Source: a virus. From it: a stretch of 64,000 bases of DNA. The notes under the pieces were generated by a model, which searched no databases, was not told where the DNA came from, and saw nothing but the letters and a program-made list of their open reading frames with translations. Positions 2,213 through 63,881 of this stretch are shown here, piece after piece. Every line of letters starts with the position of its first letter. Position 1 is the first letter of the stretch. The stretch lies in the IMG/VR virus record IMGVR_UViG_3300042882_000327, positions 1-64,000 of that record. One strand, given 5' to 3'. The translations under genes were made by a program, and so were the position numbers.

Positions 2213-3309
2213 CGAACTACCTTCAACAAAATAGTATCAGAGTTAATTCTGCCATTCAAAGGAGCCTCTTTACACTTGATATTAGCCATGAACTTCTTCA
2301 ATTCCGGTTTCTTAGCCTTCTTAAAATCTGTAAGAATCTCCAATGGTTTTCTTAGAGTCTTCTGAATAGAAAAAGTTTCATCATAACCTAAGAGGGTGGT
2401 TCCTTTGATACCAAAACCAGAATCATCTATGGCTTTGTAGTGTCCTAGTTTCTTATATTTTGTATTAAATACCCATAGCTCCATTGCCCCAATTATTTCT
2501 GTTGGAGCGATTGATGCCAATTTATATTCATTATCTTCTTTTTTGTATTGTACCTTGGCTACTTTCTTGTCCAATGTTATTACTTTCTTTTTCTTAACTT
2601 TTCGAACGGTCTTAACATTAGAACCAAAGTTCTCACAATCTTTGATAATGGATGTGATAAATGACAAATATGAGTTTAATTCTTTCTTACTCCAATGGGA
2701 ATAAGATTCAATTAATTGCTCGTCTTGTTTGTTAATAGTAAGAGTCAATTCTTCAATCAACGGATTGTAATGATCTTGAATGTGCTTTAAATATATAGGT
2801 TTAATAGAATTCGCCACCAACCAATCATAACATTTAAAATCAGATGTTTTATTCTTGATGAAGTTATCTACATGTTCTTCAATATCATTAATATATTGAG
2901 TTGTCTGATCAAACACTCTATCTTGAATAGTTCTATCTAATTTGGAAGGGACGACTTGCGAATCTACTACATCTTCTAATTTAAAGTCTAGTATTTCTTT
3001 AATTCTATAATTAACCCAATCAGATTTATCTAATTCTGCTCCCCTCTGCATTATCCTACATACAAATCCTAAATTCTTAAATAAAGAATCAGATGCAGAA
3101 GAAATCCCGTCAATAATTTCTTTCGAGTATTTGTTAGACTTAACATAATCCAATGTATACTTCTTGGATTCTTTCTCGGATAGCTGATTTGAATACCAAG
3201 AAAGTGCTCTTGTTAGTGGAAGTTCTGTTTTTTTATCTCCCCAAGTAGGCTCATCGCCTACAAACAATGATTCAATATTTATATTAACTTTAGGTTTTTT
3301 GGTTTGCAT
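2209..3309 (-). CDS. conserved T4-like hypothetical protein
   Basis: 366-aa ORF; C-terminal LWVFNTK...GTTL.G.D...KTLRKP...NGRIN segment recalled from T4-like phages. Confidence 0.65.
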   Translation of the reverse strand: MQTKKPKVNINIESLFVGDEPTWGDKKTELPLTRALSWYSNQLSEKESKKYTLDYVKSNKYSKEIIDGISSASDSLFKNLGFVCRIMQRGAELDKSDWVNYRIKEILDFKLEDVVDSQVVPSKLDRTIQDRVFDQTTQYINDIEEHVDNFIKNKTSDFKCYDWLVANSIKPIYLKHIQDHYNPLIEELTLTINKQDEQLIESYSHWSKKELNSYLSFITSIIKDCENFGSNVKTVRKVKKKKVITLDKKVAKVQYKKEDNEYKLASIAPTEIIGAMELWVFNTKYKKLGHYKAIDDSGFGIKGTTLLGYDETFSIQKTLRKPLEILTDFKKAKKPELKKFMANIKCKEAPLNGRINSDTILLKVVR

Positions 3310-3679
3310 AAAGTGGACTCATAACTGTAGATTTCAATAGACCGCTAAACATTTCTTTCATAAATTTATTGGATGCTTTAGTCTTTCTGGTAACTACACC
3401 ATAAAATCCACATTCAATAATAGATGAAACATATACATAAGGATCTGTTAATGTTGCAACAAAGTTGTCTGGATGAGTAATCATCCCATCATCATCACAT
3501 TTATAGATCATAATATGATATAAATGTCCAAGATTACTCGTTTCATATTTGGATTTCTTGCTGTATTTGAATCCTTTAATATCCAACTTTGTAAGATCTC
3601 CATTTGCTGGTAAAAATGTGACACCATCGGCATCATCAGCAAATATTTGTTTAATTGCTTCTTTAATTGTATTATGCAT
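3290..3679 (-). CDS. hypothetical protein
   Basis: 129-aa ORF packed in the operon. Confidence 0.55.
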   Translation of the reverse strand: MHNTIKEAIKQIFADDADGVTFLPANGDLTKLDIKGFKYSKKSKYETSNLGHLYHIMIYKCDDDGMITHPDNFVATLTDPYVYVSSIIECGFYGVVTRKTKASNKFMKEMFSGLLKSTVMSPLYANQKT

Positions 3680-55951: not shown

Positions 55952-57232
55952 TTACATAATATTGCGAACGGCAAAGATTCTGTAATAAACGTTCTTACGA
56001 GCAGTTAGTCTACCTTGACCAACATCTAGACCTTCCGCAAATGGGTTTGCAACCATTCCGTAACGAGTCTTGAAGCCAATCTTAGGTTGGAAAGTAGCTG
56101 GATCAACTGCACGAACCATTTGTAGAGGAACGTATGGGCAGTAGAATAGACCAGCATCATAAGGGGAAGTACCCTTATAACCAACTGTAACTAGTTCAGT
56201 ACCAGCAGACATACCGCCGAAGTAAGGATCGATATAGACCTTAATACGACCATGTAGCATACCAGCATAGGTGTTACCAGTATCGTCAACTTGTAGATCA
56301 GCAGATAGTGCTGGGGTGTATTGTAGAACACCAGCCATAGCTAGAGCGGAAGCTACGTCAGAAGAAACGATAAGGATATTACCTTTCCCTCTACGAGTTT
56401 CTTTTGCAATTGCGTTGGCTTCTCTTTCGATATGATAGATTAGACCTTTGAAACGTTCAACGGACCAACGACCATTAGAGTCGGTATCTAGATCGAACAC
56501 ACCAGGAGTTACAGTACCCCATTGAGCACCAGGCTTTGCAACTTGGTAAATGGTACGGATAACTTCACGGTTGATTTCAGCAAGAATTTCTGTAGAAAGA
56601 ATATTGCTTAGTTCGGTTTCTGCATCTAGACCATGAATTGCTTTTAGGTCTTGTGCTAGTTCGATTGAATATTCAGCCTTTAACGCACGAGTGTTAGCTG
56701 TTACAGTAACCTTGTCGATTGTAACTGCCATGTTTGCAGGTTCAATACCTTCACCAGTAGCAGTAGACATTCCTTTACCAGAAGTAAAGATATCGGTATT
56801 AGCGATATTAGCAACTGGGTTATTGGAAGTGTCAGAATCGTAACCACGACCGATAATACCAGAGAAAATGGTATTAGCTTCGTTGTAGAATGCTTCGTTA
56901 TTGTTTTGTGAAGTATAACGTGAACGTAGAGCAAAGATTAGTCCAGTAGGACCAGTCATTGGCTGTACACCAGCAACATCATACGCAATTAGGTTAGGAA
57001 GCGAACGACGAACTAGACTGATTAGAATAGGATCGAAGTTTTGGATTCCACCAGCAACGTTAGTTGGTGCGGTTTCGTTAATGGCCTGACGTTCAGCATC
57101 CATAGCTTTTTGTTGGTTCTCAAGAACCATAGCTGTGACTGCCTTCTTGTAGGGGTCTTTAATTGGGTCTAGTTCTGGATGTTCCAGAATTGGACTCCAC
57201 TTGTTTACAACTTCTTCTTCGTTTAAATACAT
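55952..57232 (-). CDS. 23: major capsid protein gp23
   Basis: Motifs GVQPMTGPTGLIFALR, RALKAEYS.ELAQDL.A.HG, YCPYVPL, FQP.IGFKTRYG. Confidence 0.98.
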   Translation of the reverse strand: MYLNEEEVVNKWSPILEHPELDPIKDPYKKAVTAMVLENQQKAMDAERQAINETAPTNVAGGIQNFDPILISLVRRSLPNLIAYDVAGVQPMTGPTGLIFALRSRYTSQNNNEAFYNEANTIFSGIIGRGYDSDTSNNPVANIANTDIFTSGKGMSTATGEGIEPANMAVTIDKVTVTANTRALKAEYSIELAQDLKAIHGLDAETELSNILSTEILAEINREVIRTIYQVAKPGAQWGTVTPGVFDLDTDSNGRWSVERFKGLIYHIEREANAIAKETRRGKGNILIVSSDVASALAMAGVLQYTPALSADLQVDDTGNTYAGMLHGRIKVYIDPYFGGMSAGTELVTVGYKGTSPYDAGLFYCPYVPLQMVRAVDPATFQPKIGFKTRYGMVANPFAEGLDVGQGRLTARKNVYYRIFAVRNIM

Positions 57233-57264: not shown

Positions 57265-57272
57265 TATTTATA
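57265..57272 (-). promoter_or_regulatory. T4 late promoter for gene 23
   Basis: Exact TATAAATA. Confidence 0.85.
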
Positions 57273-57277
57273 AAAAA

Positions 57278-58672
57278 TTAAAATTTAGCGAGTCTAGTAA
57301 TCTTGTTAACATAAGATTCGATTAAGGGATCGACTACTTTAGTCGTATTGTCTTCATCGATTTCAATCATGTCGTTTAAAGAATCTGTAGATGCTGTTCT
57401 GATTTCTGTTGGGAAATAGCTTTCCTTGATAGAAACTAATTTTTCTGAAAAATCTTCTTCAGAAACGAACTCAACATTCTTAGCTAGTGCTCTAACTTTC
57501 TCAGCTTGAGATAGTGTTAGACCTTCACATGCTAGATGAACTACTTCTTCTTTTCTGTGTTCGGATAGAGACTTCTTTAGATCAATATTCTTTAGATGTT
57601 GTTCATTGATTTGATCTTCTAGCTCTTCAACGCGATCAGCTAGTTGTTCAACGATATCAACTTTATCTTCTGGAATATCAATATAATGTTCTACGAACAC
57701 ATTCTTTAATGCTCCGATGAAATCTTCTACGATCTCAGAACGAAGTCCTTTTTCGATAGCTAATTCATTTTCAGCCATCCAATTTTCAACAACGTAGTCT
57801 AGGTAAGAATCTAGCTTAGATGCAAAATCTTCCTTAACTACTTCTAGAGTTTCTTCAAACTCAGCAATATACTTTTCTTCTAGTTCAGAAGCGATTTCTT
57901 CAACACGAGCTTCAACAGCCGCTTCGAAGATCATAGAAGCCTTTTCTTTGAATTCTTCAGAAAGGTTTTCGCCAGAAAGCATGGCATCAACGTCTTCTTT
58001 AACCTTCATTTTCATTTCGTCTTTCTTTGCTTTTTTTGCTTTCTTATTTTCTTCTTCGTCTTCGTCTTCATCGTCATAGGAATCGCAACTGTCGCCTTCC
58101 ATGATTCTTACTGCTTCGTCTTTATCGCAACCATATTTTTCCATGAAAGATTCATCTTCCATATTTTCTAAGTCTTCCATAACTTCTTCAATGGTAGCTT
58201 CTTCCAATTCTTCCTCTTCTTCGTACTCTTCTTCTTCTTCTCCTTCGCAAGCTGCAACAGCTTTAGGATTGCCTTGCTTCTTGACGGAAGCTAGAGTGGC
58301 CTTAGTACGTTCGCCCTTTTCGGCGGATTTAGAAGTTTCTGGTTCGATTTCTGGGGACTTAGCTAGATCAGAACGACCAGCCTTTTCGCCTGGTTGAGTT
58401 GATAACTTCTTCATTGGTTCGGAACCAACTGGTGGGGTTTTACCCGGAGCAGTTGCTGTAGGAACTCCATTAGTAGGATCTAGAGCACTGTCATCAGTTG
58501 AATAACCATTTCTACCAATATCTTTTGTAGACTGCTGTGGAGCAGTTACGCTTGGCTTATATCCATCTCCGAAAGATGCAGATGGAGCAGCCTTTTTGCT
58601 GGCAGCAAGATTAGCAGAAGCATCACCTTCTAGAATCTTTGCAGCAGCTTCAGATAAATTTAATTTAGACAT
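57278..58672 (-). CDS. 22: prohead core scaffold gp22
   Basis: Motifs LSEEFK.KA..IFEAAV, YL.YVVE.W..EN.LAIE.G, F.EHYID.P; between 21 and 23. Confidence 0.93.
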   Translation of the reverse strand: MSKLNLSEAAAKILEGDASANLAASKKAAPSASFGDGYKPSVTAPQQSTKDIGRNGYSTDDSALDPTNGVPTATAPGKTPPVGSEPMKKLSTQPGEKAGRSDLAKSPEIEPETSKSAEKGERTKATLASVKKQGNPKAVAACEGEEEEEYEEEEELEEATIEEVMEDLENMEDESFMEKYGCDKDEAVRIMEGDSCDSYDDEDEDEEENKKAKKAKKDEMKMKVKEDVDAMLSGENLSEEFKEKASMIFEAAVEARVEEIASELEEKYIAEFEETLEVVKEDFASKLDSYLDYVVENWMAENELAIEKGLRSEIVEDFIGALKNVFVEHYIDIPEDKVDIVEQLADRVEELEDQINEQHLKNIDLKKSLSEHRKEEVVHLACEGLTLSQAEKVRALAKNVEFVSEEDFSEKLVSIKESYFPTEIRTASTDSLNDMIEIDEDNTTKVVDPLIESYVNKITRLAKF

Positions 58673-58712: not shown

Positions 58713-58720
58713 TATTTATA
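58713..58720 (-). promoter_or_regulatory. T4 late promoter for gene 22
   Basis: Exact TATAAATA. Confidence 0.85.
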
Positions 58721-58733
58721 AGAATGGATTTTT

Positions 58734-59399
58734 TTACAATCTATTCATATAGTTTTCAAAAATCTTTAAAGCTACTGCTTCAATATCTTTTGATTTTACT
58801 TTCTTCAATGTTTGCTTCGCTTCTTCTCTGTACTGTTGTACCCAACCTTTGCCATCGACAAACATCCACTCGGCATCTTCCATAATGCCATCAACCCAAC
58901 AGGACAATCCTGATGGTTGTAGAACTGCATCTACACAAGAAATTGTAAAGTCTCCTTGTACAACTTTAATACCATTCTCTCCTTCTTTAATAGAACCTAA
59001 TGCTCTAGAAGAACAACCAAAAGAAACTCCTCCCTCGATTAGAGCTTGTAGTTCTTTTCCTGCGGCGGTTTCTAAAATTTTCGCTTTACCATAAACATCT
59101 CCTTTATCGGAACCTTTTCTTTCCAATCTAAGTTCTGTGATGATGTGAGAAATCTTGCCTTCGGAAATTCTTGGACTATCTTCGTGGCCCAATGTACCAA
59201 CCGCTCTATTACGATCTACATAATCTTCAATATATTTCTCTACCGCTGGAAACATTACGTTTTCTTGATAGATTCTATTGTTTCTGTTAGCAACTCCCCA
59301 TTCCATAAATGGACCTTGGATATAATAATTCTTTTTTCCAGAAGCAGTAGATTCTGTCAAAACTTCAAAATCTTCTATATCTTCTCTTAGTAATTTCAT
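58734..59399 (-). CDS. 21: prohead protease gp21
   Basis: Motifs N.N.R.Y, G.LGH, SH.I, G.SSR.LGS, D.V..PS. Confidence 0.93.
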   Translation of the reverse strand: MKLLREDIEDFEVLTESTASGKKNYYIQGPFMEWGVANRNNRIYQENVMFPAVEKYIEDYVDRNRAVGTLGHEDSPRISEGKISHIITELRLERKGSDKGDVYGKAKILETAAGKELQALIEGGVSFGCSSRALGSIKEGENGIKVVQGDFTISCVDAVLQPSGLSCWVDGIMEDAEWMFVDGKGWVQQYREEAKQTLKKVKSKDIEAVALKIFENYMNRL

Positions 59400-59427
59400 T
59401 TATATTCCTCTTTAATTTGAAATTGTT

Positions 59428-59919
59428 TTATATTGAATCAGAATCCAATTTTTTTAATTGTTTTTTATATAAATTTGGTTCGTGTTCCTTAACTTTTTCT
59501 TTTCTAATGTGAGATAAAGTAGATCTAACAAGCAATGATGGTTTGTATGGCTCGTTTTGTTCTTTGATAGAAGCATGTTTTCTCCATGCAGAATATACAT
59601 CTCTTGTAGAAAATGGAGAAACATCTTTTCCATGTGGAGAAAGAACTATATCTTCATGTCCTGGTTTTTTATATACTTTATGACTTGTCTTATTTTGTCT
59701 AGCAAATCTATAACCAATACCAGTCAATATATTATGAGCTTGTGAAAATTTCATAATTGTTGGTCTATTACTCGTCAACATAGAAGAAGATATATCAATT
59801 CTTTTTTCTTGTAATTTTAAACATATTTTTTCTTTAATAATATCTTCTAATATGATATTAGCCCGATCTATATCATTTTCTACCAAACAATTTATTAAAT
59901 TTTTTATTTTTTCGGACAT
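59428..59919 (-). CDS. prohead-core-like (gp67/68-type) N-terminal helix fused to a HicA-like domain
   Basis: Residues 1-48 parallel the N-terminus of 61277..62176; residues 56-114 MKFSQ..IL..IGY.F.RQ..SH.VYK.PG...IV..PH.KD match the HicA pattern. Confidence 0.7.
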   Translation of the reverse strand: MSEKIKNLINCLVENDIDRANIILEDIIKEKICLKLQEKRIDISSSMLTSNRPTIMKFSQAHNILTGIGYRFARQNKTSHKVYKKPGHEDIVLSPHGKDVSPFSTRDVYSAWRKHASIKEQNEPYKPSLLVRSTLSHIRKEKVKEHEPNLYKKQLKKLDSDSI

Positions 59920-59931
59920 TTTTAAATTACC

Positions 59932-60354
59932 TTAAATCGTTGCTAATTGAAAATGCATACCATCTGGTTTTTTCCAATAACCACCCCATGCAAATCCCGC
60001 ATCTGTAAAACATTTTACTAATTCCGGAGACATGGTTGGGGGTTTTCCAAATCTATTCCATGCAGCATTGATATCAATAGCAATTCCCCAAGAATGGAGA
60101 GACATTGATTTCGCCCCACGTTTTGATCTAATATTAAAACAACCATCCCATGTTTTGAGTTGGTCTGTTAGTCCTCTATGTAATATATTTTCAAATGCAT
60201 TTGTTAAAGGAATTATCATATCTTTATTACAATAAATCTTTTTTGGGATAACTCCTACGTGTAAATAATTTGGAACGACCCAAAGAGTCATATTAGACTC
60301 TTTAAATGGGTTTCCATATTTTTTCCAACATTGTTCAGAAGTCACCAAAGACAT
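59932..60354 (-). CDS. M15 family Zn peptidoglycan peptidase
   Basis: Motifs G.FN.R, S.HSWG.AID.N, F.WGG.W...D.MHFQ. Confidence 0.88.
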   Translation of the reverse strand: MSLVTSEQCWKKYGNPFKESNMTLWVVPNYLHVGVIPKKIYCNKDMIIPLTNAFENILHRGLTDQLKTWDGCFNIRSKRGAKSMSLHSWGIAIDINAAWNRFGKPPTMSPELVKCFTDAGFAWGGYWKKPDGMHFQLATI

Positions 60355-60355
60355 A

Positions 60356-60880
60356 TTATTCTCCGGTCATTATTACCAAGTTGGTATTTGCACCAATAGC
60401 AGTAACATTAGCTCTCATATAAGCCCAGCCTGGTTTTAGTGTGATATATGTAGTATTGCCAGAATCTGATCCATGAGTTACAGTATTCGAAGCAATCCAA
60501 TGATTTCCATCCAAGGAAACATCAACTTTATATGAAGCACCGCCAGTACCATTTACATAAGATTGTACAATAGTATCGGTTCCGGTTGCTCTTGGTAAAG
60601 TATGTTCTGGCTTTGTTCCAGTTTGTCCGGATAAAAATCCATTAATACAATAATTATCAATTCCTTGCATATGTTTATTGCATTGAACTGTAAATGTATT
60701 TGAGGATGTTACTGTTGCAGTTGCTGTATACGCATCATAACTTGCACCAGATGTTAATGTGACTTCTGCTCCTGTAAATAATCCGTGATTATTGGCTGTT
60801 ATAGTGATGACATTATTAGTATAAGTAAATGAATTTACTGGAAAAAATTGTTTAATGTATCTTACTCGTGAAACGCTCAT
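60356..60880 (-). CDS. putative virion structural protein
   Basis: T/G/S/N-rich; HGL..G..V, V...NTFT and S.DG..W motifs. Confidence 0.6.
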   Translation of the reverse strand: MSVSRVRYIKQFFPVNSFTYTNNVITITANNHGLFTGAEVTLTSGASYDAYTATATVTSSNTFTVQCNKHMQGIDNYCINGFLSGQTGTKPEHTLPRATGTDTIVQSYVNGTGGASYKVDVSLDGNHWIASNTVTHGSDSGNTTYITLKPGWAYMRANVTAIGANTNLVIMTGE

Positions 60881-61273
60881 TTATGTTTCCTTATTAAATT
60901 TATCTACAGAATATTTTAACATCTGTAAAAAGTTAGTTTCTGATTCAAGTATATATTCTTCAAATTCTACCTTACCATCGGAAATGGATTCATATAATTC
61001 TAGAATAGACTTTGAACATTCTTCGTTAATATTCAATGTAGAACCATCATGAAAATATAATGGTTCTACTTCTTCTATGGATTTTAACTGTTCTATGATA
61101 GAAAAATCGCATTCCATTAGTTCTAGGCCATTCTTCTCGTAATTTAAAGAAAAATACTTTTTTAACTGTTCGCAAAAATACAAAGCAACTTTTTGACCTC
61201 CCGGAAAGGTCTGAATAGCAGTTCTTCTCAGAACTAGATTTACAGGAGGTTCTCTAAAAGTTTTCTTTTTCAT
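60881..61273 (-). CDS. conserved T4-like head-region protein
   Basis: PP..LVL.R..I..FP.GQ.VALY motif; lies between 20 and 21. Confidence 0.65.
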   Translation of the reverse strand: MKKKTFREPPVNLVLRRTAIQTFPGGQKVALYFCEQLKKYFSLNYEKNGLELMECDFSIIEQLKSIEEVEPLYFHDGSTLNINEECSKSILELYESISDGKVEFEEYILESETNFLQMLKYSVDKFNKET

Positions 61274-61276
61274 TTA

Positions 61277-62176
61277 TTATTCTTCTACTTCTTCATTAGT
61301 AGCTTTCTTCTTTGCGGCATAATATGCACCAAGAGCCATTTGTCTTCTTTCTTCTTTAGATTTTCCTTCAAATCTGGAATCGTCAGAATGGACAAAATCT
61401 TTAATCCAAGCAGAAACGCCATCAGAAACTGATAATTTTTCTTCCAATTCTTCAGATTCTTTTCTAATCATTTTAAAATCTTGAGAATCTAATCTTCCGT
61501 TTTTATTTTTATCCAGTTTACGCTGTTTTCCTATAAGTTTTTCTTCTAAAGATTCATTAGCAGATTTTTCGGATGCAATTTTTACACCATGATATGTGTG
61601 GTCTGGAAATTTTGTATGCATTATTTTAATAGCTTTATCATTGGCATGTTTTGTAGTTTTTGCTTTAACTTCAAAATCGTGTCTATTACTTCGGTCATCA
61701 TGCGGACTATTAGAAGCATATCCTGTAAATTTGAAAGTGGCTTCTTCCAAAGATTCATTAGCAGATTTTTTTAAATATCTTTGCATATACCAATCAGGAG
61801 TACCATTGTTTTTTCTCCAATATAAAACACCAGAAGCATCATTTACTTGATCTAAATATTTTGCTTCTGCTTTGTCTCCAGAAATTGTACCATGTGTTCT
61901 CATGGCTTTTGCAGCTTCGCCAGCATCTTTCATGATAAATCTTAGTTGATCATCAGATTTACTGTGATATTCGTGGCCTTCTAATGGATGTTGTTTAGAT
62001 TTTCTGGCTTCTTCCAAAGATTCATTAGTATTCATGAATGATTGAGCAACTTCAATTCTTTTTGATTCTAGAGCATCAACAATTTTAGATTGAATGGCCG
62101 CTGTAATTGATGCTTGCATATCAGCAATATTATCGGACGAAGCATATTCAATAGCGTTTTTAATGTTTTCTTCCAT
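61277..62176 (-). CDS. gp67-like prohead core protein, modular
   Basis: Directly after the portal gene; N-terminal core helix, EF-hand-like DKNKNGRLDSQDF, repeated NESLEE linkers. Confidence 0.75.
   Translation of the reverse strand: MEENIKNAIEYASSDNIADMQASITAAIQSKIVDALESKRIEVAQSFMNTNESLEEARKSKQHPLEGHEYHSKSDDQLRFIMKDAGEAAKAMRTHGTISGDKAEAKYLDQVNDASGVLYWRKNNGTPDWYMQRYLKKSANESLEEATFKFTGYASNSPHDDRSNRHDFEVKAKTTKHANDKAIKIMHTKFPDHTYHGVKIASEKSANESLEEKLIGKQRKLDKNKNGRLDSQDFKMIRKESEELEEKLSVSDGVSAWIKDFVHSDDSRFEGKSKEERRQMALGAYYAAKKKATNEEVEE
61541..62028. repeat. three dispersed direct repeats encoding (SA/T)NESLEE
   Basis: 61541-61569 vs 61742-61770 match at 28/29 nt; 61738-61761 and 62005-62028 are identical over 24 nt. 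Confidence 0.9.
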
Positions 62177-62219: not shown

Positions 62220-63881
62220 TTACTGTTGTATATTATACGGATTATTATTTCTTGATGTCGATTGTTGTGGTTGTTGCGATTGTTCTTGCTCTGCTCCAGC
62301 ATCTATTTGTTGATCTGGTTGTGGCATTAACTTATTAGTAAGTTCCGCAGCTTGCGCCTGAAGAGTAATTTGCTTTTCTTGATCTTCGGATTGCTGTGTA
62401 AAGTCGGTGATTCTTTCTTCTGCAATTTCCTCGTCCATCAACTTCATTTCTTCTTCGTTCAAACGAAGAATATTTTCTCTAATCCATTTCTTAGAATAAT
62501 ATTTACCAACAAAAGGATCTACTGTAGCTAGAATATTTAACCTTTCGGTCATTAATTCGGATTCTTTCAATTCTACGAAATTATTATCAACCGTAAAATC
62601 GAAATAAATGTCTTGTTTAAATTGTTCCCATTCTTCTTCTGTGCAAATTCCTTTTAGAACTAACTGCACTCTCATAGCTTGATAGAAAATATCAGAGAAT
62701 TTCTTCCTTAGTTTATCAACAAATTTAGAGAATTTTAATTCATCTCTAGTAATTTCCATTGAACGTCCAATGGATACTGCTTGACCCGGATCTAGTCTTG
62801 TAACAGGAACATTCAATGATTTATATAGTTTTTGCTGGAAATATTCCACCATTGCCATATCATTGAAATTGTCTGTCGATTGAAGGGTGGTAATTTCCGT
62901 GCCTTTTCCCCCATCAGAACGACGAGGTAGCCAAAAATCTTCCAACATGGAAAGATGTCTTCTATCATCTCTAACTTCGCCGGTGTTCGCATCATATACC
63001 AATTTATTTTTATATTTGGTCATGATATCACGAACATATTGTTCGGCTTTTTGTTTAGGTAAATTACCAACATCAATATAGAACACTCTTCTTTGTGGTG
63101 CTCTAGAAATTTTGTAAATGACTGAAGCATCTTCAATCATTCGTAATTGGTTTAATGGTTTAATTGCTTTATGTAAATAACTCAATACCATCGATCTTCT
63201 AGGGTCCATTAATCCCGAAGTGACGTAAATTATTGAATCTGTTGCTATTTTTACTCCAAGAGTAGTTAGACTTTGTGTTACCTTGTCATTATAGACGTAG
63301 TATTCTTCCACTTTATCAATTAGATCGACACCAGTTTGCGGGTCTTTTACTTTTTTGATTTGCCTAACTTTTTTAATTCTTCTTGGGTCGATATATCGTA
63401 ATTCGAGAATTCCCTTTTGGGGATTATTAACATCAATAATAATTTGATAAAATAAACGTCCATCGACATAATATCTTCTGAATATATCAGAAGACATATT
63501 ACTATAGTTTAGTAGTCTCTGGACGTTATCGAATTCGTCATAAATGGCTTTTTTGATTTTGTCTGATTGCTTTAAATCGTCTGTTACTAATTTAATGCTT
63601 TTACCATCGTCATCATTAACGATAGCTTCGTTAACAACATCTTCGATGGCAGCTTCAATTTCGGGTTGCATACTCATCTCTCTATAACGAGTGATAAGTT
63701 CAATTTCGTTTTTAGCAACGCCTTCGACATCTATAGATGCAGAACCAAAGAATGCCGAAGAAGATATAGTAAGAGAACCATCATCGTCAGGTGGTTGGAC
63801 AAAGGTTTTATTATCTACTTCCTCTTCGGATTTTCTTCGAATTTTAAATCCAAATAAAGAAAAACTATTTTTATCAGCCAT
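62220..63881 (-). CDS. 20: portal protein gp20
   Basis: Motifs LFGF.I, YR.M...PE, Y.DGR, SYLHKAIK..NQL.M.EDA, RAP.RR.FYIDVGNLP, EDFWLPRR. Confidence 0.97.
   Translation of the reverse strand: MADKNSFSLFGFKIRRKSEEEVDNKTFVQPPDDDGSLTISSSAFFGSASIDVEGVAKNEIELITRYREMSMQPEIEAAIEDVVNEAIVNDDDGKSIKLVTDDLKQSDKIKKAIYDEFDNVQRLLNYSNMSSDIFRRYYVDGRLFYQIIIDVNNPQKGILELRYIDPRRIKKVRQIKKVKDPQTGVDLIDKVEEYYVYNDKVTQSLTTLGVKIATDSIIYVTSGLMDPRRSMVLSYLHKAIKPLNQLRMIEDASVIYKISRAPQRRVFYIDVGNLPKQKAEQYVRDIMTKYKNKLVYDANTGEVRDDRRHLSMLEDFWLPRRSDGGKGTEITTLQSTDNFNDMAMVEYFQQKLYKSLNVPVTRLDPGQAVSIGRSMEITRDELKFSKFVDKLRKKFSDIFYQAMRVQLVLKGICTEEEWEQFKQDIYFDFTVDNNFVELKESELMTERLNILATVDPFVGKYYSKKWIRENILRLNEEEMKLMDEEIAEERITDFTQQSEDQEKQITLQAQAAELTNKLMPQPDQQIDAGAEQEQSQQPQQSTSRNNNPYNIQQ

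What the first reader, a model, noticed from the sequence alone, without database searches (positions are those of the whole stretch)
59428..59919. HicA-like RNase toxin domain fused to a prohead-core targeting helix beside the head protease
Seen: the gene just before gp21 starts with a 48-aa helix (..II.EKI.L.LQEKRIDISSSM) that parallels the N-terminus of the gp67-like core protein (..AIQSKIVDALESKRIEVAQSF). Residues 56-114 (59578-59754) read MKFSQAHNILTGIGYRFARQNKTSHKVYKKPGHEDIVLSPHGKDVSPFSTRDV, flanked by LQE and IKE. No HicB-like gene is visible in the window. Known: HicA toxins are ~60-aa dsRBD-fold RNases with an L...G(F/Y)...RQ.GSH...(K/H)P....V.P.H..D pattern and a catalytic His, and T4 gp21 cleaves core proteins after (L/I)-X-E. 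Inference: the core helix loads the domain into proheads, gp21 frees it, and it may be injected as an RNase for host shut-off or counter-defence. It could instead be a non-catalytic decoy for host HicB or a nucleic-acid binder, since GSH reads TSH here. I know of no description of this fusion.
Basis: partly seen in the sequence, partly recalled or inferred. Interest (0 to 1): 0.87.

Follow-up and report, generated by a model that had tools for sequence, protein, structure and literature searches.

The report
Head-core protein carrying a HicA domain
A T4-like phage from lake water encodes, just before its head protease gene, a small protein that joins a head-core anchoring helix to a HicA toxin-type RNA-binding domain; the phage may carry this domain inside its capsid into the next host, but no experiment shows that yet.

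Summary
ORF 59428-59919 (-), 163 aa, lies between an M15 peptidase gene and the gp21-type head protease.

It has three parts:
- Residues 1-50: a helical hairpin, paralogous to the N-terminus of the post-portal 299-aa protein and weakly but consistently like T4 gp67.
- Residues 55-115: a HicA-family domain. Pfam gives 24.1 bits, under the cut-off of 27, but relatives score above it. The family profile hits solved HicAs at 2.5e-8, and the AF2 model matches four HicA structures at Z 5.9-7.5.
- Residues 121-163: a basic tail shared with relatives that lack HicA.

His80 sits at the catalytic position. The Gly needed for toxicity in Burkholderia HicA is Lys here.

Seventeen distinct proteins join this helix to HicA, in two arrangements. 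Near the protease genes of close relatives, 4 of 16 loci carry the HicA module and 7 carry the helix gene without it. Module junctions carry hydrophobic-x-Glu motifs. No HicB was found in the 90-kb record, which is about half complete.

Core loading, gp21 cleavage, ejection and RNase activity remain inference.

I call it a new variant of known kinds (T4 packaged internal proteins, MuF toxins, HicA). The scan noted it before only on this same stretch. Interest 0.62.

The parts
59428..59919 (-). Whole gene, 163 aa plus stop: gp67-type helix + HicA-family domain + basic tail
   Evidence: ORF list. Conserved in synteny in L001 and L002. Identical stretches in contigs of non-source lake-water runs.
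59770..59919 (-). Residues 1-50: N-terminal helical hairpin, the putative prohead-core anchor
   Evidence: AF2 helices 3-13 and 17-50, pLDDT 93-98 over residues 1-40. BLASTP E 8e-6 to residues 1-51 of the 299-aa protein. phrog_1064 (T4 gp67) E 0.064, in register. hhalign of A4 against T4 gp67: probability 89.5%, E 2e-6, 47 columns.
59806..59814 (-). LQE (residues 36-38): candidate gp21 site inside the helix, kept as L-x-E-K/R in most helix bearers
   Evidence: Site lists. T4 gp21 specificity L/I-X-E from PMC9026906 passages. Cleavage itself is not tested.
59575..59757 (-). Residues 55-115: HicA-family dsRBD-like domain (alpha-beta-beta-beta-alpha)
   Evidence: Pfam PF07927 E 4.1e-5, 24.1 bits, below the cut-off of 27. 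29 of 29 A3 members hit PF07927. A3 profile against PDB HicA 4c26 at 2.5e-8. VIA-align: 5yrz_B Z 7.5, rmsd 2.2, 57 aligned of 58; 6g26_E Z 7.2; 1whz Z 7.0; 4p78_C Z 5.9.
59680..59691 (-). KTSH (residues 77-80): His80 at the catalytic-His position; Lys77 where relatives have Gly
   Evidence: Motif table: His in 29 of 29, Gly before it in 27 of 29, absent from this copy and P0021. The profile His aligns with the H24A position of BpsHicA and with the His of 'GSH' in YpHicA3. Roles of Gly22 and His24 from PMC11594946 section 5.
59560..59568 (-). IKE (residues 118-120): candidate gp21 site between the HicA domain and the tail, followed by QNEP
   Evidence: (I/L)KE-QNEP is kept in P0001-P0004. V/L-x-E-Q stands before the tail in HicA-less relatives. 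Cleavage is not tested.
59431..59559 (-). Residues 121-163: basic helical tail (pI 9.6) shared with HicA-less pre-protease proteins
   Evidence: AF2 helices 129-146 and 148-161, pLDDT 65-81. Full-length profile matches to P0014, P0017 and P0019. dN/dS 0.10 against L001. pI.
58734..59399 (-). gp21-type prohead serine protease, 28 nt downstream of the gene
   Evidence: Peptidase_S77 E 6.5e-27. phrog_207 E 9.8e-55.
61277..62176 (-). Post-portal 299-aa paralogue (gp67 position): same N-terminal helix, then modules separated by NESLEE (x3) and SEELEE
   Evidence: Homologues carry other module sets.
57278..58672 (-). gp22-type scaffolding protein, the proposed docking partner of the helix
   Evidence: T4_CASP E 1e-65. 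Complex prediction of residues 224-464 with the helix alignment gave weak support: 0.44 against a best control of 0.00.
55952..57232 (-). gp23-type major capsid protein, with I-N-E before TAPTN near residue 53
   Evidence: Pfam Gp23 E 3e-140. N-terminal sequence. That this is the maturation site is inference.
62220..63881 (-). gp20-type portal protein, first gene of the block
   Evidence: Portal_T4 E 1.4e-167.

Best explanation
The gene encodes an accessory prohead-core (internal head) protein of an uncultured freshwater T4-like phage.

**Shown**
- It is a real, conserved late-block gene with three parts: a gp67-type N-terminal helical hairpin, a HicA-family domain with the catalytic-position His, and a basic tail.
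- The same helix heads a family of proteins whose modules (basic module, HicA, tail) are shuffled.
- The HicA module is sporadic among close relatives.

**Inferred**
- The helix docks the protein into the gp22 scaffolding core as the prohead forms.
- The gp21-type protease cuts after Glu at hydrophobic-x-E junctions, here LQE38 and IKE120.
- This frees a basic fragment of about 9.4 kDa (residues 39-120, pI 10.3) that stays with the packaged DNA.
- The fragment enters the next host with the DNA, where it binds and probably cuts RNA for host shut-off or counter-defence.
- Keeping it in the capsid would stand in for an antitoxin.

**My odds**
- About 0.85 that it is a gp67-helix/HicA fusion belonging to the head-core gene set.
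- About 0.5 that it is packaged and processed.
- About 0.3-0.35 that this particular copy is an active, ejected RNase.
For: **Anatomy and place**
- The ORF lies in the portal-to-capsid block, 28 nt before the protease gene.
- The synteny is the same in L001 and L002.

**HicA membership**
- Pfam E 4.1e-5. Three of 5 scanned relatives score above the cut-off: 29.0, 28.0 and 29.1 bits.
- A full scan of 1.84 billion representatives gave 29 hits at E <= 1e-3, including free-standing 60-95-aa GSH proteins such as P0016 at 5.7e-9.
- 29 of 29 A3 members hit PF07927, best 1.7e-16.
- The A3 profile hits PDB HicAs: 4c26 at 2.5e-8, 6g26 at 7.9e-8, 1whz at 2.8e-5, 4p78 at 3.5e-3.
- The AF2 model has pLDDT 85.9. 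The top four of 680 chains aligned by VIA-align are HicAs at Z 7.5, 7.2, 7.0 and 5.9; the best unrelated chain scores 4.9.
- His is kept in 29 of 29 members.

**Helix**
- BLASTP E 8e-6 to the neighbouring paralogue.
- phrog_1064 (T4 gp67) hits in register at 0.064, 0.017 and 7.4e-4.
- hhalign probability 89.5%, E 2e-6.
- Small gp67-like helix proteins follow the portal gene in HTVC008M and Melnitz.

**Cargo-like behaviour**
- Of 53 collected proteins, 17 have helix and HicA, 24 helix only and 12 HicA only.
- HicA sits either after the helix or inside the hairpin.
- Of 16 close-clade loci, 4 have helix + HicA before the protease, 7 have helix without HicA, 4 have no such gene and 1 is other. 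None of 20 distant loci has HicA.
- Between the window and L001 the two helix genes are 62% and 53% identical, against 78-99% for their seven neighbours.
- Contigs of a relative about 85% alike, in 3 of 4 lake runs, place the protease and M15 anchors 433 letters apart, against 939 here. That fits absence of the gene.

**Processing**
- Hydrophobic-x-E stands at module junctions; 10 of 12 helix-first fusions have one within 6 residues before HicA.
- The paralogue has NESLEE x3, and the capsid protein has INE before TAPTN.
- T4 gp21 cuts after L/I-X-E, and the T4 core holds gp67, gp68, the IPs and Alt (PMC9026906 passages).

**Docking**
- Complex prediction of gp22 residues 224-464 with the helix scored 0.44, best of 3 controls 0.00. 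Verdict: weak support.
- That mark was reached by 58 of 80 solved complexes and 2 of 110 mismatched pairs. At 0.60 or under it was reached by only 7 of those 80 and by both mismatches that passed.
- The runs agree in at least 88% of contacts and the partner's pLDDT is at least 75. My own alignments were used, so these counts hold only roughly.

**Charge**
- Residues 39-120 have pI 10.3; residues 1-38 have pI 4.9.
Against: - This copy scores under Pfam's cut-off (24.1 bits against 27; 25.2 in the six-frame search).
- Lys77 stands where 27 of 29 relatives keep Gly, and Gly22 is required for BpsHicA toxicity (PMC11594946 section 5).
- dN/dS of the HicA part against L001 is 0.88, compared with 0.29 for the helix and 0.10 for the tail. 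This is one pair and about 44 synonymous sites, so it is noisy.
- This copy and P0019 lack the x-E junction directly before the domain.
- In T4 the fragments of gp67 and gp68 mostly leave the head, so a gp67-type anchor does not by itself predict retention.
- Likeness to T4 gp67 is weak. BLASTP is not significant and Pfam GP67 gives no hit for either helix segment.
- There is no virion proteome and no expression data.
- The record is only about 50% complete, so a HicB elsewhere is not excluded.
- An unspecific RNase brought in with the DNA would also threaten the phage's own early transcripts (inference).
Confidence: 0.5

Rival explanations
1. The protein is a packaged or core protein, but its HicA fold no longer cuts RNA. 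The basic dsRBD-like domain, like the basic module and the tail, serves as a nucleic-acid binder that neutralises or organises DNA in the head, or as an extra scaffolding mass, as the basic T4 internal proteins are thought to do.
For: - Lys replaces the Gly that BpsHicA needs.
- dN/dS is 0.88 in the domain.
- All three non-helix modules of the family are strongly basic: pI 10.2-11.8 in relatives' modules and 9.6 for this copy's tail.
- HicA is interchangeable with, or absent beside, other basic modules.
- No antitoxin gene was found.
Against: - The catalytic-position His is kept in 29 of 29 members, this copy included, and the PHG motif in 27 of 29. This is hard to explain if only charge matters.
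- Close relatives keep G-S-S-H.
Confidence: 0.22
2. The protein enters the prohead core and is cut by the protease, but the HicA fragment leaves the head with the other core fragments before DNA packaging. It then acts in the producing cell. This would be an RNase released only once heads mature, not an ejected protein.
For: - T4 gp67, gp68 and gp22 fragments mostly exit the head (PMC9026906 passages).
- The anchor here is of the gp67 type, not the T4 IP targeting signal.
Against: - A folded basic fragment of about 9 kDa is less likely to escape than short peptides, and would bind incoming DNA (inference; pI).
- A late cytoplasmic RNase has no obvious gain over a free gene.
Confidence: 0.1
3. 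The protein is not a head component at all. It is a late-expressed cytoplasmic HicA RNase whose flanking helices regulate or oligomerise it, and its place in the head block is an accident of insertion.
For: - Phage genomes often carry stray toxin-antitoxin-like genes (PMC11594946 section 5.2 passages).
- The block also holds an M15 peptidase gene with no head role known to me.
Against: - The helix is paralogous to the gp67-position protein, and 17 proteins join it to HicA in two arrangements.
- HicA-less versions of the same gene sit at the same place in 7 of 16 close loci.
- Junction motifs fit the head protease.
Confidence: 0.08

Closest known systems
T4 gp67 (PIP), prohead core protein (Pfam GP67 PF17634, phrog_1064)
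   Same: The N-terminal helical segment aligns in register. It is encoded in the portal-to-protease interval, and L/I-x-E motifs lie in and after the helix.
   Different: - T4 gp67 is 80 aa with an acidic tail and directly follows the portal gene.
- Here that place is held by the 299-aa paralogue, and this gene sits before the protease.
- This protein carries a folded HicA domain and a basic tail.
- Pfam GP67 does not hit it.
T4 internal proteins IPI, IPII, IPIII and Alt: capsid-targeted, gp21-trimmed, ejected host-takeover or anti-defence proteins
   Same: The proposed logic is the same: a conserved targeting part, variable cargo, cutting at L/I-x-E, small basic products, and a polymorphic locus among relatives (PMC3012670 and PMC9026906 passages).
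   Different: - The anchor here is a 50-aa gp67-type hairpin. The T4 signal is, as I recall, a short N-terminal targeting sequence; I did not compare them.
- No T4 internal protein is a HicA, to my knowledge.
- Packaging and ejection are shown for T4 and not shown here.
HicA toxins of type II HicAB systems (PF07927, COG1724)
   Same: Fold, profile similarity and the catalytic-position His.
   Different: - It is not a 50-100-aa single-domain protein.
- No HicB was found.
- Gly is replaced by Lys in this copy.
- The gene sits in a lytic-type phage's late head operon rather than a two-gene toxin-antitoxin cassette.
MuF polymorphic toxins of temperate phages (Jamet et al. 2017, PMC5576092)
   Same: A head-morphogenesis or internal protein part is joined to a swappable toxin domain, proposed to travel in the capsid (abstract and passages).
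   Different: - There is no MuF domain here (none listed).
- No small immunity ORF follows; only 28 nt separate the gene from the protease gene.
- The phage is T4-like rather than temperate.
- HicA occurs 0 times in that paper's main text.

Membership tests
HicA toxin family (PF07927 / COG1724) | Significant profile similarity to HicA sequences | tested here: met
   - This copy: E 4.1e-5 but 24.1 bits, under Pfam's curated 27.
- Three of 5 scanned relatives are above the cut-off.
- 29 of 29 A3 members hit at E <= 0.01.
- The A3 profile hits solved HicAs at 2.5e-8 to 3.5e-3.
- The A1 profile alone gave only E 0.8 to 4c26.
HicA toxin family (PF07927 / COG1724) | dsRBD-like alpha-beta-beta-beta-alpha fold | tested here: met
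   - AF2 elements: H58-67, E71-75, E81-84, E91-93, H102-115.
- VIA-align: 5yrz_B Z 7.5 (rmsd 2.2, 57 aligned of 58), 6g26_E Z 7.2 (2.7, 60 aligned), 1whz Z 7.0 (3.2, 65 aligned), 4p78_C Z 5.9 (2.6, 59 aligned). The best unrelated chain scores Z 4.9.
- Foldseek E-values are only 0.2-1.6.
HicA toxin family (PF07927 / COG1724) | Catalytic His in the G-S-H loop (His24 of BpsHicA, His28 of YpHicA3) | tested here: met
   His80 is present, and His is kept in 29 of 29 family members. The profile His aligns with the mutated H24A position of 4c26 and 6g26 and with the His of 'GSH' in 4p78. No 3-D superposition of side chains was possible.
HicA toxin family (PF07927 / COG1724) | Conserved Gly two residues before the His (Gly22 of BpsHicA, needed for toxicity) | tested here: not met
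   This copy reads N-K-T-S-H. Twenty-seven of 29 members keep a Gly, and the closest relatives read G-S-S-H. The requirement is from PMC11594946 section 5.
HicA toxin family (PF07927 / COG1724) | RNase activity or toxicity | not testable with these tools
   Needs expression and an RNA cleavage assay.
HicAB type II toxin-antitoxin system | Adjacent HicB antitoxin gene; small single-domain toxin of 50-100 aa | tested here: not met
   - No PF15919 or PF05534 match at E <= 1 in the 89,959-base record, which is about 50% complete.
- The neighbours are an M15 peptidase gene and the protease gene.
- The protein is 163 aa with three parts.
T4 gp67-type prohead core protein (phrog_1064 / PF17634) | Homology of the N-terminal helical segment | tested here: met
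   The signal is weak but consistent.
- phrog_1064: E 0.064 (this protein), 0.017 (299-aa paralogue) and 7.4e-4 (L001 paralogue), all in register.
- hhalign of A4 against T4 gp67: probability 89.5%, E 2e-6, 47 columns.
- Against it: BLASTP is not significant and Pfam GP67 gives no hit.
T4 gp67-type prohead core protein (phrog_1064 / PF17634) | Gene directly after the portal gene; short protein with an acidic tail | tested here: not met
   This gene lies before the protease, and its non-helix parts are basic. The 299-aa paralogue holds the gp67 position.
T4 gp67-type prohead core protein (phrog_1064 / PF17634) | Presence in the prohead core and cleavage by the head protease | not testable with these tools
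   There are only indirect signs: junction motifs and weak support for helix-scaffold docking, 0.44 against a best control of 0.00.
T4 gp68 (the gene before gene 21 in T4) | Sequence homology | tested here: not met
   hhalign of HicA-less pre-protease proteins (A8) against T4 gp68: probability 0.16%, E 0.38. The phrogs that T4 gp68 hit (phrog_1049, 14114, 3503) are not among this protein's hits. It is a positional analogue only.
T4 internal proteins with a capsid targeting sequence | Short N-terminal targeting sequence removed at L/I-x-E; ejection with the DNA | not tested
   I fetched no T4 IP sequences. The short length of the T4 signal is recalled, not from a call. The function is not testable here.
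MuF polymorphic toxins | N-terminal MuF (SPP1 gp7-like) domain and a downstream immunity ORF | tested here: not met
   The Pfam scan lists only HicA_toxin and two chance-level rows. Only 28 nt separate the gene from the protease gene.

The most novel reading that the evidence does not exclude
A lineage of freshwater T4-like phages runs a polymorphic capsid-cargo locus beside the head protease. In it a gp67-type core anchor delivers a HicA RNase with no antitoxin. The flanking propeptides and confinement in the prohead keep it harmless in the producing cell. The head protease arms it, and it is ejected with the DNA to cut host RNA, for shut-off or against an RNA-based defence. On this reading a toxin-antitoxin toxin has been turned into a virion-borne weapon of a lytic phage.
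Probability: 0.25. Interest if true: 0.8.

Novelty: new variant of a known kind. Interest (0 to 1): 0.62.

Why it matters
- **New use of a HicA toxin.** HicA toxins are known as halves of bacterial toxin-antitoxin pairs. Phage-borne HicAB pairs have been tied to prophage maintenance or defence (PMC11594946 passages). A HicA domain built into a head-core protein of a T4-like phage, without HicB, would be a different use: protein cargo brought in by the virion.
- **A wider principle.** It would extend the T4 principle of targeted, protease-trimmed, ejected internal proteins to a new anchor (the gp67-type hairpin) and a new cargo class.
- **A possible arms-race spot.** The pre-protease gene is fast-evolving and present or absent among co-occurring lake strains.
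- **It is testable.** The tests are toxicity and RNase assays with and without His80, cutting by the cloned protease, and prohead co-assembly.
- **A practical use.** If the anchor works as proposed, it is also a candidate tag for loading foreign proteins into T4-like capsids.

Tried and rejected
- **Phage record collection.** tblastn of the protein against 50,697 phage records found no match at E <= 1e-3.
- **Single-sequence PDB search.** It gave only a chance row.
- **NCBIfam.** It returned nothing relevant for 7 proteins.
- **T4 gp68 homology.** Rejected for the pre-protease family: hhalign probability 0.16%.
- **Late promoter.** TATAAATA occurs 12 times in the window against 13.6 expected, and none lies just upstream of this gene. 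Copies do lie before the scaffold and capsid genes. I infer co-transcription with the upstream genes.
- **Context of the HicA-inside-hairpin forms (P0006-P0010).** This could not be obtained. The viral-contig scan with P0007 found none of 22 candidates confirmed.
- **Expression.** No RNA holder was listed among the 22 runs, so I make no statement on expression.
- **Cover in laid runs.** Some bins of the gene had no cover in runs X11 and X14. I draw nothing from that.
- **'Decoy for host HicB'.** Rejected on logic: binding HicB would free host HicA. This is inference only.
- **Other points.** The opposite-strand ORFs inside the gene (46 and 62 aa) have no support. Supplementary files were not opened; virion-proteome tables of related aquatic T4-like phages, if they exist, would be there.
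Full report
**What is there**

The window holds the head-gene block of a T4-like phage on its minus strand. In order it reads:
- portal (62220-63881)
- a 299-aa protein (61277-62176)
- two genes of unknown function (130 and 174 aa)
- an M15 peptidase gene (59932-60354)
- the 163-aa gene in question (59428-59919)
- a gp21-type protease (58734-59399)
- a gp22-type scaffold (57278-58672)
- a gp23-type capsid protein (55952-57232)

The assignments rest on Pfam and PHROG scans. The record is an 89,959-base virus contig that CheckV rates at 50% completeness.

Its capsid protein is 60-65% identical to those of Melnitz, HTVC008M and some cyanophages. The stretch recurs in 20 public runs labelled lake water or freshwater metagenome. 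Nine of them may be the source. Seven further runs from seven studies hold at least half of the sampled words.

**The middle part is a HicA-family domain**

- This copy scores E 4.1e-5 and 24.1 bits against Pfam HicA_toxin, under the curated 27 bits.
- The word-indexed search found five relatives besides the protein itself (6 hits among 41 candidates). Four carry a precomputed PF07927.
- Of five relatives I scanned, three exceed the cut-off at 29.0, 28.0 and 29.1 bits, and two do not (26.5 and 24.0).
- A full HMMER pass over 1.84 billion representatives with the A1 profile gave 29 proteins at E <= 1e-3. They include ordinary free-standing 60-95-aa HicA-like proteins with G-S-H.
- I aligned 29 sequences as A3, leaving out four helix-only hits. 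All 29 hit PF07927 at E <= 0.01, best 1.7e-16.
- The A3 profile hits solved HicA chains: 4c26 at 2.5e-8, 6g26 at 7.9e-8, 1whz at 2.8e-5 and 4p78 at 3.5e-3.
- AlphaFold2 with A3 gave mean pLDDT 85.9 and an alpha-beta-beta-beta-alpha unit at residues 58-115.
- Foldseek ranked HicA chains first, but only at E 0.2-1.6.
- VIA-align gave Z 7.5, 7.2, 7.0 and 5.9 for four HicA entries that cover the whole domain. The best unrelated chain scored 4.9.

**Active-site residues**

A review of HicAB (PMC11594946, section 5 read in full) states that His24 and Gly22 of BpsHicA are needed for toxicity. These correspond to His28 and Gly26 of YpHicA3.

The family His aligns with that His and is present in 29 of 29 members, including His80 here. 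The Gly is present in 27 of 29. This copy reads N-K-T-S-H, while its nearest relatives read G-S-S-H.

Contigs from three non-source runs cover these codons without a listed difference, so the Lys is real. Against the closest relative with DNA in hand (L001), dN/dS is 0.88 for the HicA part, 0.29 for the helix and 0.10 for the tail. This is a single pair with few sites. It points to relaxed or diversifying change in this copy's domain.

**The N-terminus is a gp67-type helix**

- Residues 1-51 align without gaps to residues 1-51 of the 299-aa protein, at E 8e-6.
- The PHROG built on T4 gp67 (phrog_1064; T4 gp67 itself scores 1.7e-30) hits three of these helices in register, at 0.064, 0.017 and 7.4e-4.
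- A profile of nine helix segments from five contigs (A4) matches T4 gp67 residues 3-49 by hhalign at probability 89.5%, E 2e-6.
- Pairwise BLASTP to T4 gp67 and Pfam GP67 find nothing.
- In HTVC008M and Melnitz a small protein with the same helix and an acidic tail follows the portal gene, as gp67 does in T4.

So the 299-aa protein is the gp67-position gene, and the 163-aa protein carries a second, paralogous copy of its anchor. The family shows no likeness to T4 gp68, which holds the pre-protease place in T4.

**A modular family**

Searching with the helix profile among longer proteins gave 28 hits at E <= 0.01, among the 8000 candidates that were scored. Together with the earlier hits, I collected 53 proteins: 17 with helix and HicA, 24 with the helix only and 12 with HicA only. 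The HicA model in that count was built from the same sequences; the helix model was not.

- **Post-portal type.** The helix is followed by varied modules separated by E-rich L-E-E linkers. This window has NESLEE three times and SEELEE once.
- **Pre-protease type.** The helix is followed by an optional basic module, an optional HicA domain and a basic tail.
- **Third arrangement.** In five proteins the HicA domain sits inside the hairpin, right after L-I-E-S.
- **Junctions.** Module junctions carry hydrophobic-x-Glu. Ten of 12 helix-first fusions have one within six residues before the HicA domain. This copy and P0019 do not. This copy retains LQE38, which is kept across the family, and IKE120 before the tail.

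**Distribution**

Around protease genes in IMG/VR I found 36 loci. Five are contigs I had already fetched, and several look like the same phage sampled repeatedly.

| Clade | Loci | Helix + HicA before protease | Helix, no HicA | M15-type gene directly upstream | Other |
|---|---|---|---|---|---|
| Close (protease 68-92% identical) | 16 | 4 | 7 | 4 (one confirmed by PHROG) | 1 |
| Distant | 20 | 0 | - | - | 17 have a 60-85-aa helix protein about 500-600 nt upstream |

Between the window and L001 the two helix-bearing genes are 62% and 53% identical, while the seven other genes of the block are 78-99% identical. In 3 of 4 laid lake-water runs, a contig of a relative about 85% alike places the protease and M15 anchors 433 letters apart instead of 939. 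That fits a strain without the gene. The joint has a short side of 27 letters and comes from another strain, so it is a hint only.

**Mechanism**

From the T4 literature (passages of PMC9026906 and PMC3012670):
- The prohead core holds gp21, gp22, gp67, gp68, Alt and the internal proteins.
- gp21 cuts after L/I-X-E.
- Internal proteins share a targeting sequence, vary in cargo and are ejected.
- Fragments of gp67 and gp68 mostly leave the head.

By analogy I propose the following, all of it inference:
- The helix docks the protein in the core.
- The protease trims it at E38 and E120.
- The basic 82-residue product (pI 10.3) stays with the DNA and is ejected.

A fold of the scaffold's conserved domain with the helix alignment gave weak support. 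The score was 0.44 against a best control of 0.00. That mark was reached by 58 of 80 solved complexes and 2 of 110 mismatched pairs, but at 0.60 or under by only 7 of those 80 and by both mismatches that passed. The runs agree in at least 88% of contacts and the partner's pLDDT is at least 75. My own alignments were used, so these counts hold only roughly.

No HicB gene was found, and no small ORF follows the gene.

**Novelty**

I searched the paper library three times:
- HicA + prohead + phage: 9 papers.
- HicA / virion / packaged / ejected: 213 papers hold at least 3 of the 4 terms, 15 were listed, and of those only an unrelated HIV paper holds 'hica'.
- HicA + T4-like + marine: 5 papers.

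I judged the listings by title and abstract. I read passages of PMC12619734 and PMC5795418. None describes a HicA domain fused to a head-core protein.

The nearest concept is the MuF polymorphic toxins of temperate phages (PMC5576092, abstract and passages). They have another anchor and usually an immunity ORF, and that paper's main text does not mention HicA.

I therefore class this as a new variant of known kinds. The library lacks most subscription journals, and supplements were closed.

Noticed in passing
window 61277-62176 (-); relatives P0035-P0053: The post-portal 299-aa protein is a string of modules after the gp67-type helix, separated by NESLEE (x3) and SEELEE. Homologues swap modules: some carry an EF-hand-like KLDKNKNGKLD loop and a PF18974 module, and lengths run from 149 to 453 aa. 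It looks like a second, even more variable cargo or core polyprotein.
   Followed up: partly
window 59932-60354 (-): An M15_4 peptidase (endolysin-like) gene sits inside the portal-to-protease head block. In four related loci (L021-L024) it directly abuts the protease gene. It has no gp67-type helix. Why a wall hydrolase sits among core genes is open.
   Followed up: partly
window 59330-60029, seen in runs X10, X11, X14: Contigs of a co-occurring relative about 85% alike place the protease and M15 genes about 506 letters closer together. That fits strains with and without the HicA-fusion gene in the same lakes.
   Followed up: partly
P0006-P0010 (proteins only, no DNA context): In five proteins the HicA domain is inserted between helix 1 (M..LIES) and helix 2 of the hairpin, a second and independent-looking way of joining the two parts. 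Two of them read G-S-H instead of G-S-S-H.
   Followed up: partly
P0031 (409 aa), P0028 (306 aa): These are distant HicA-domain hits in other fusions. P0031 carries a dual-specificity phosphatase domain (Pfam DSPc 2.6e-7) upstream of the HicA domain.
   Followed up: no
window 60356-60880 and 60881-61273 (-): Two conserved genes of unknown function (174 and 130 aa) lie between the gp67-position gene and the M15 gene. They are 83% and 78% identical in L001. HTVC008M has two proteins of about 130 aa at the same place.
   Followed up: no
window 58713-58720 and 57265-57272 (-): TATAAATA (the T4 late-promoter consensus) lies just upstream of the scaffold and capsid genes. None lies before the HicA-fusion gene. 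The total count in the window is not above chance.
   Followed up: partly
L019 (IMGVR_UViG_3300033121_000786), 484-1280 and 2553-3467: One close-clade contig has two adjacent helix genes (102 and 162 aa) and a 304-aa gene with no helix and no family match directly before the protease.
   Followed up: no
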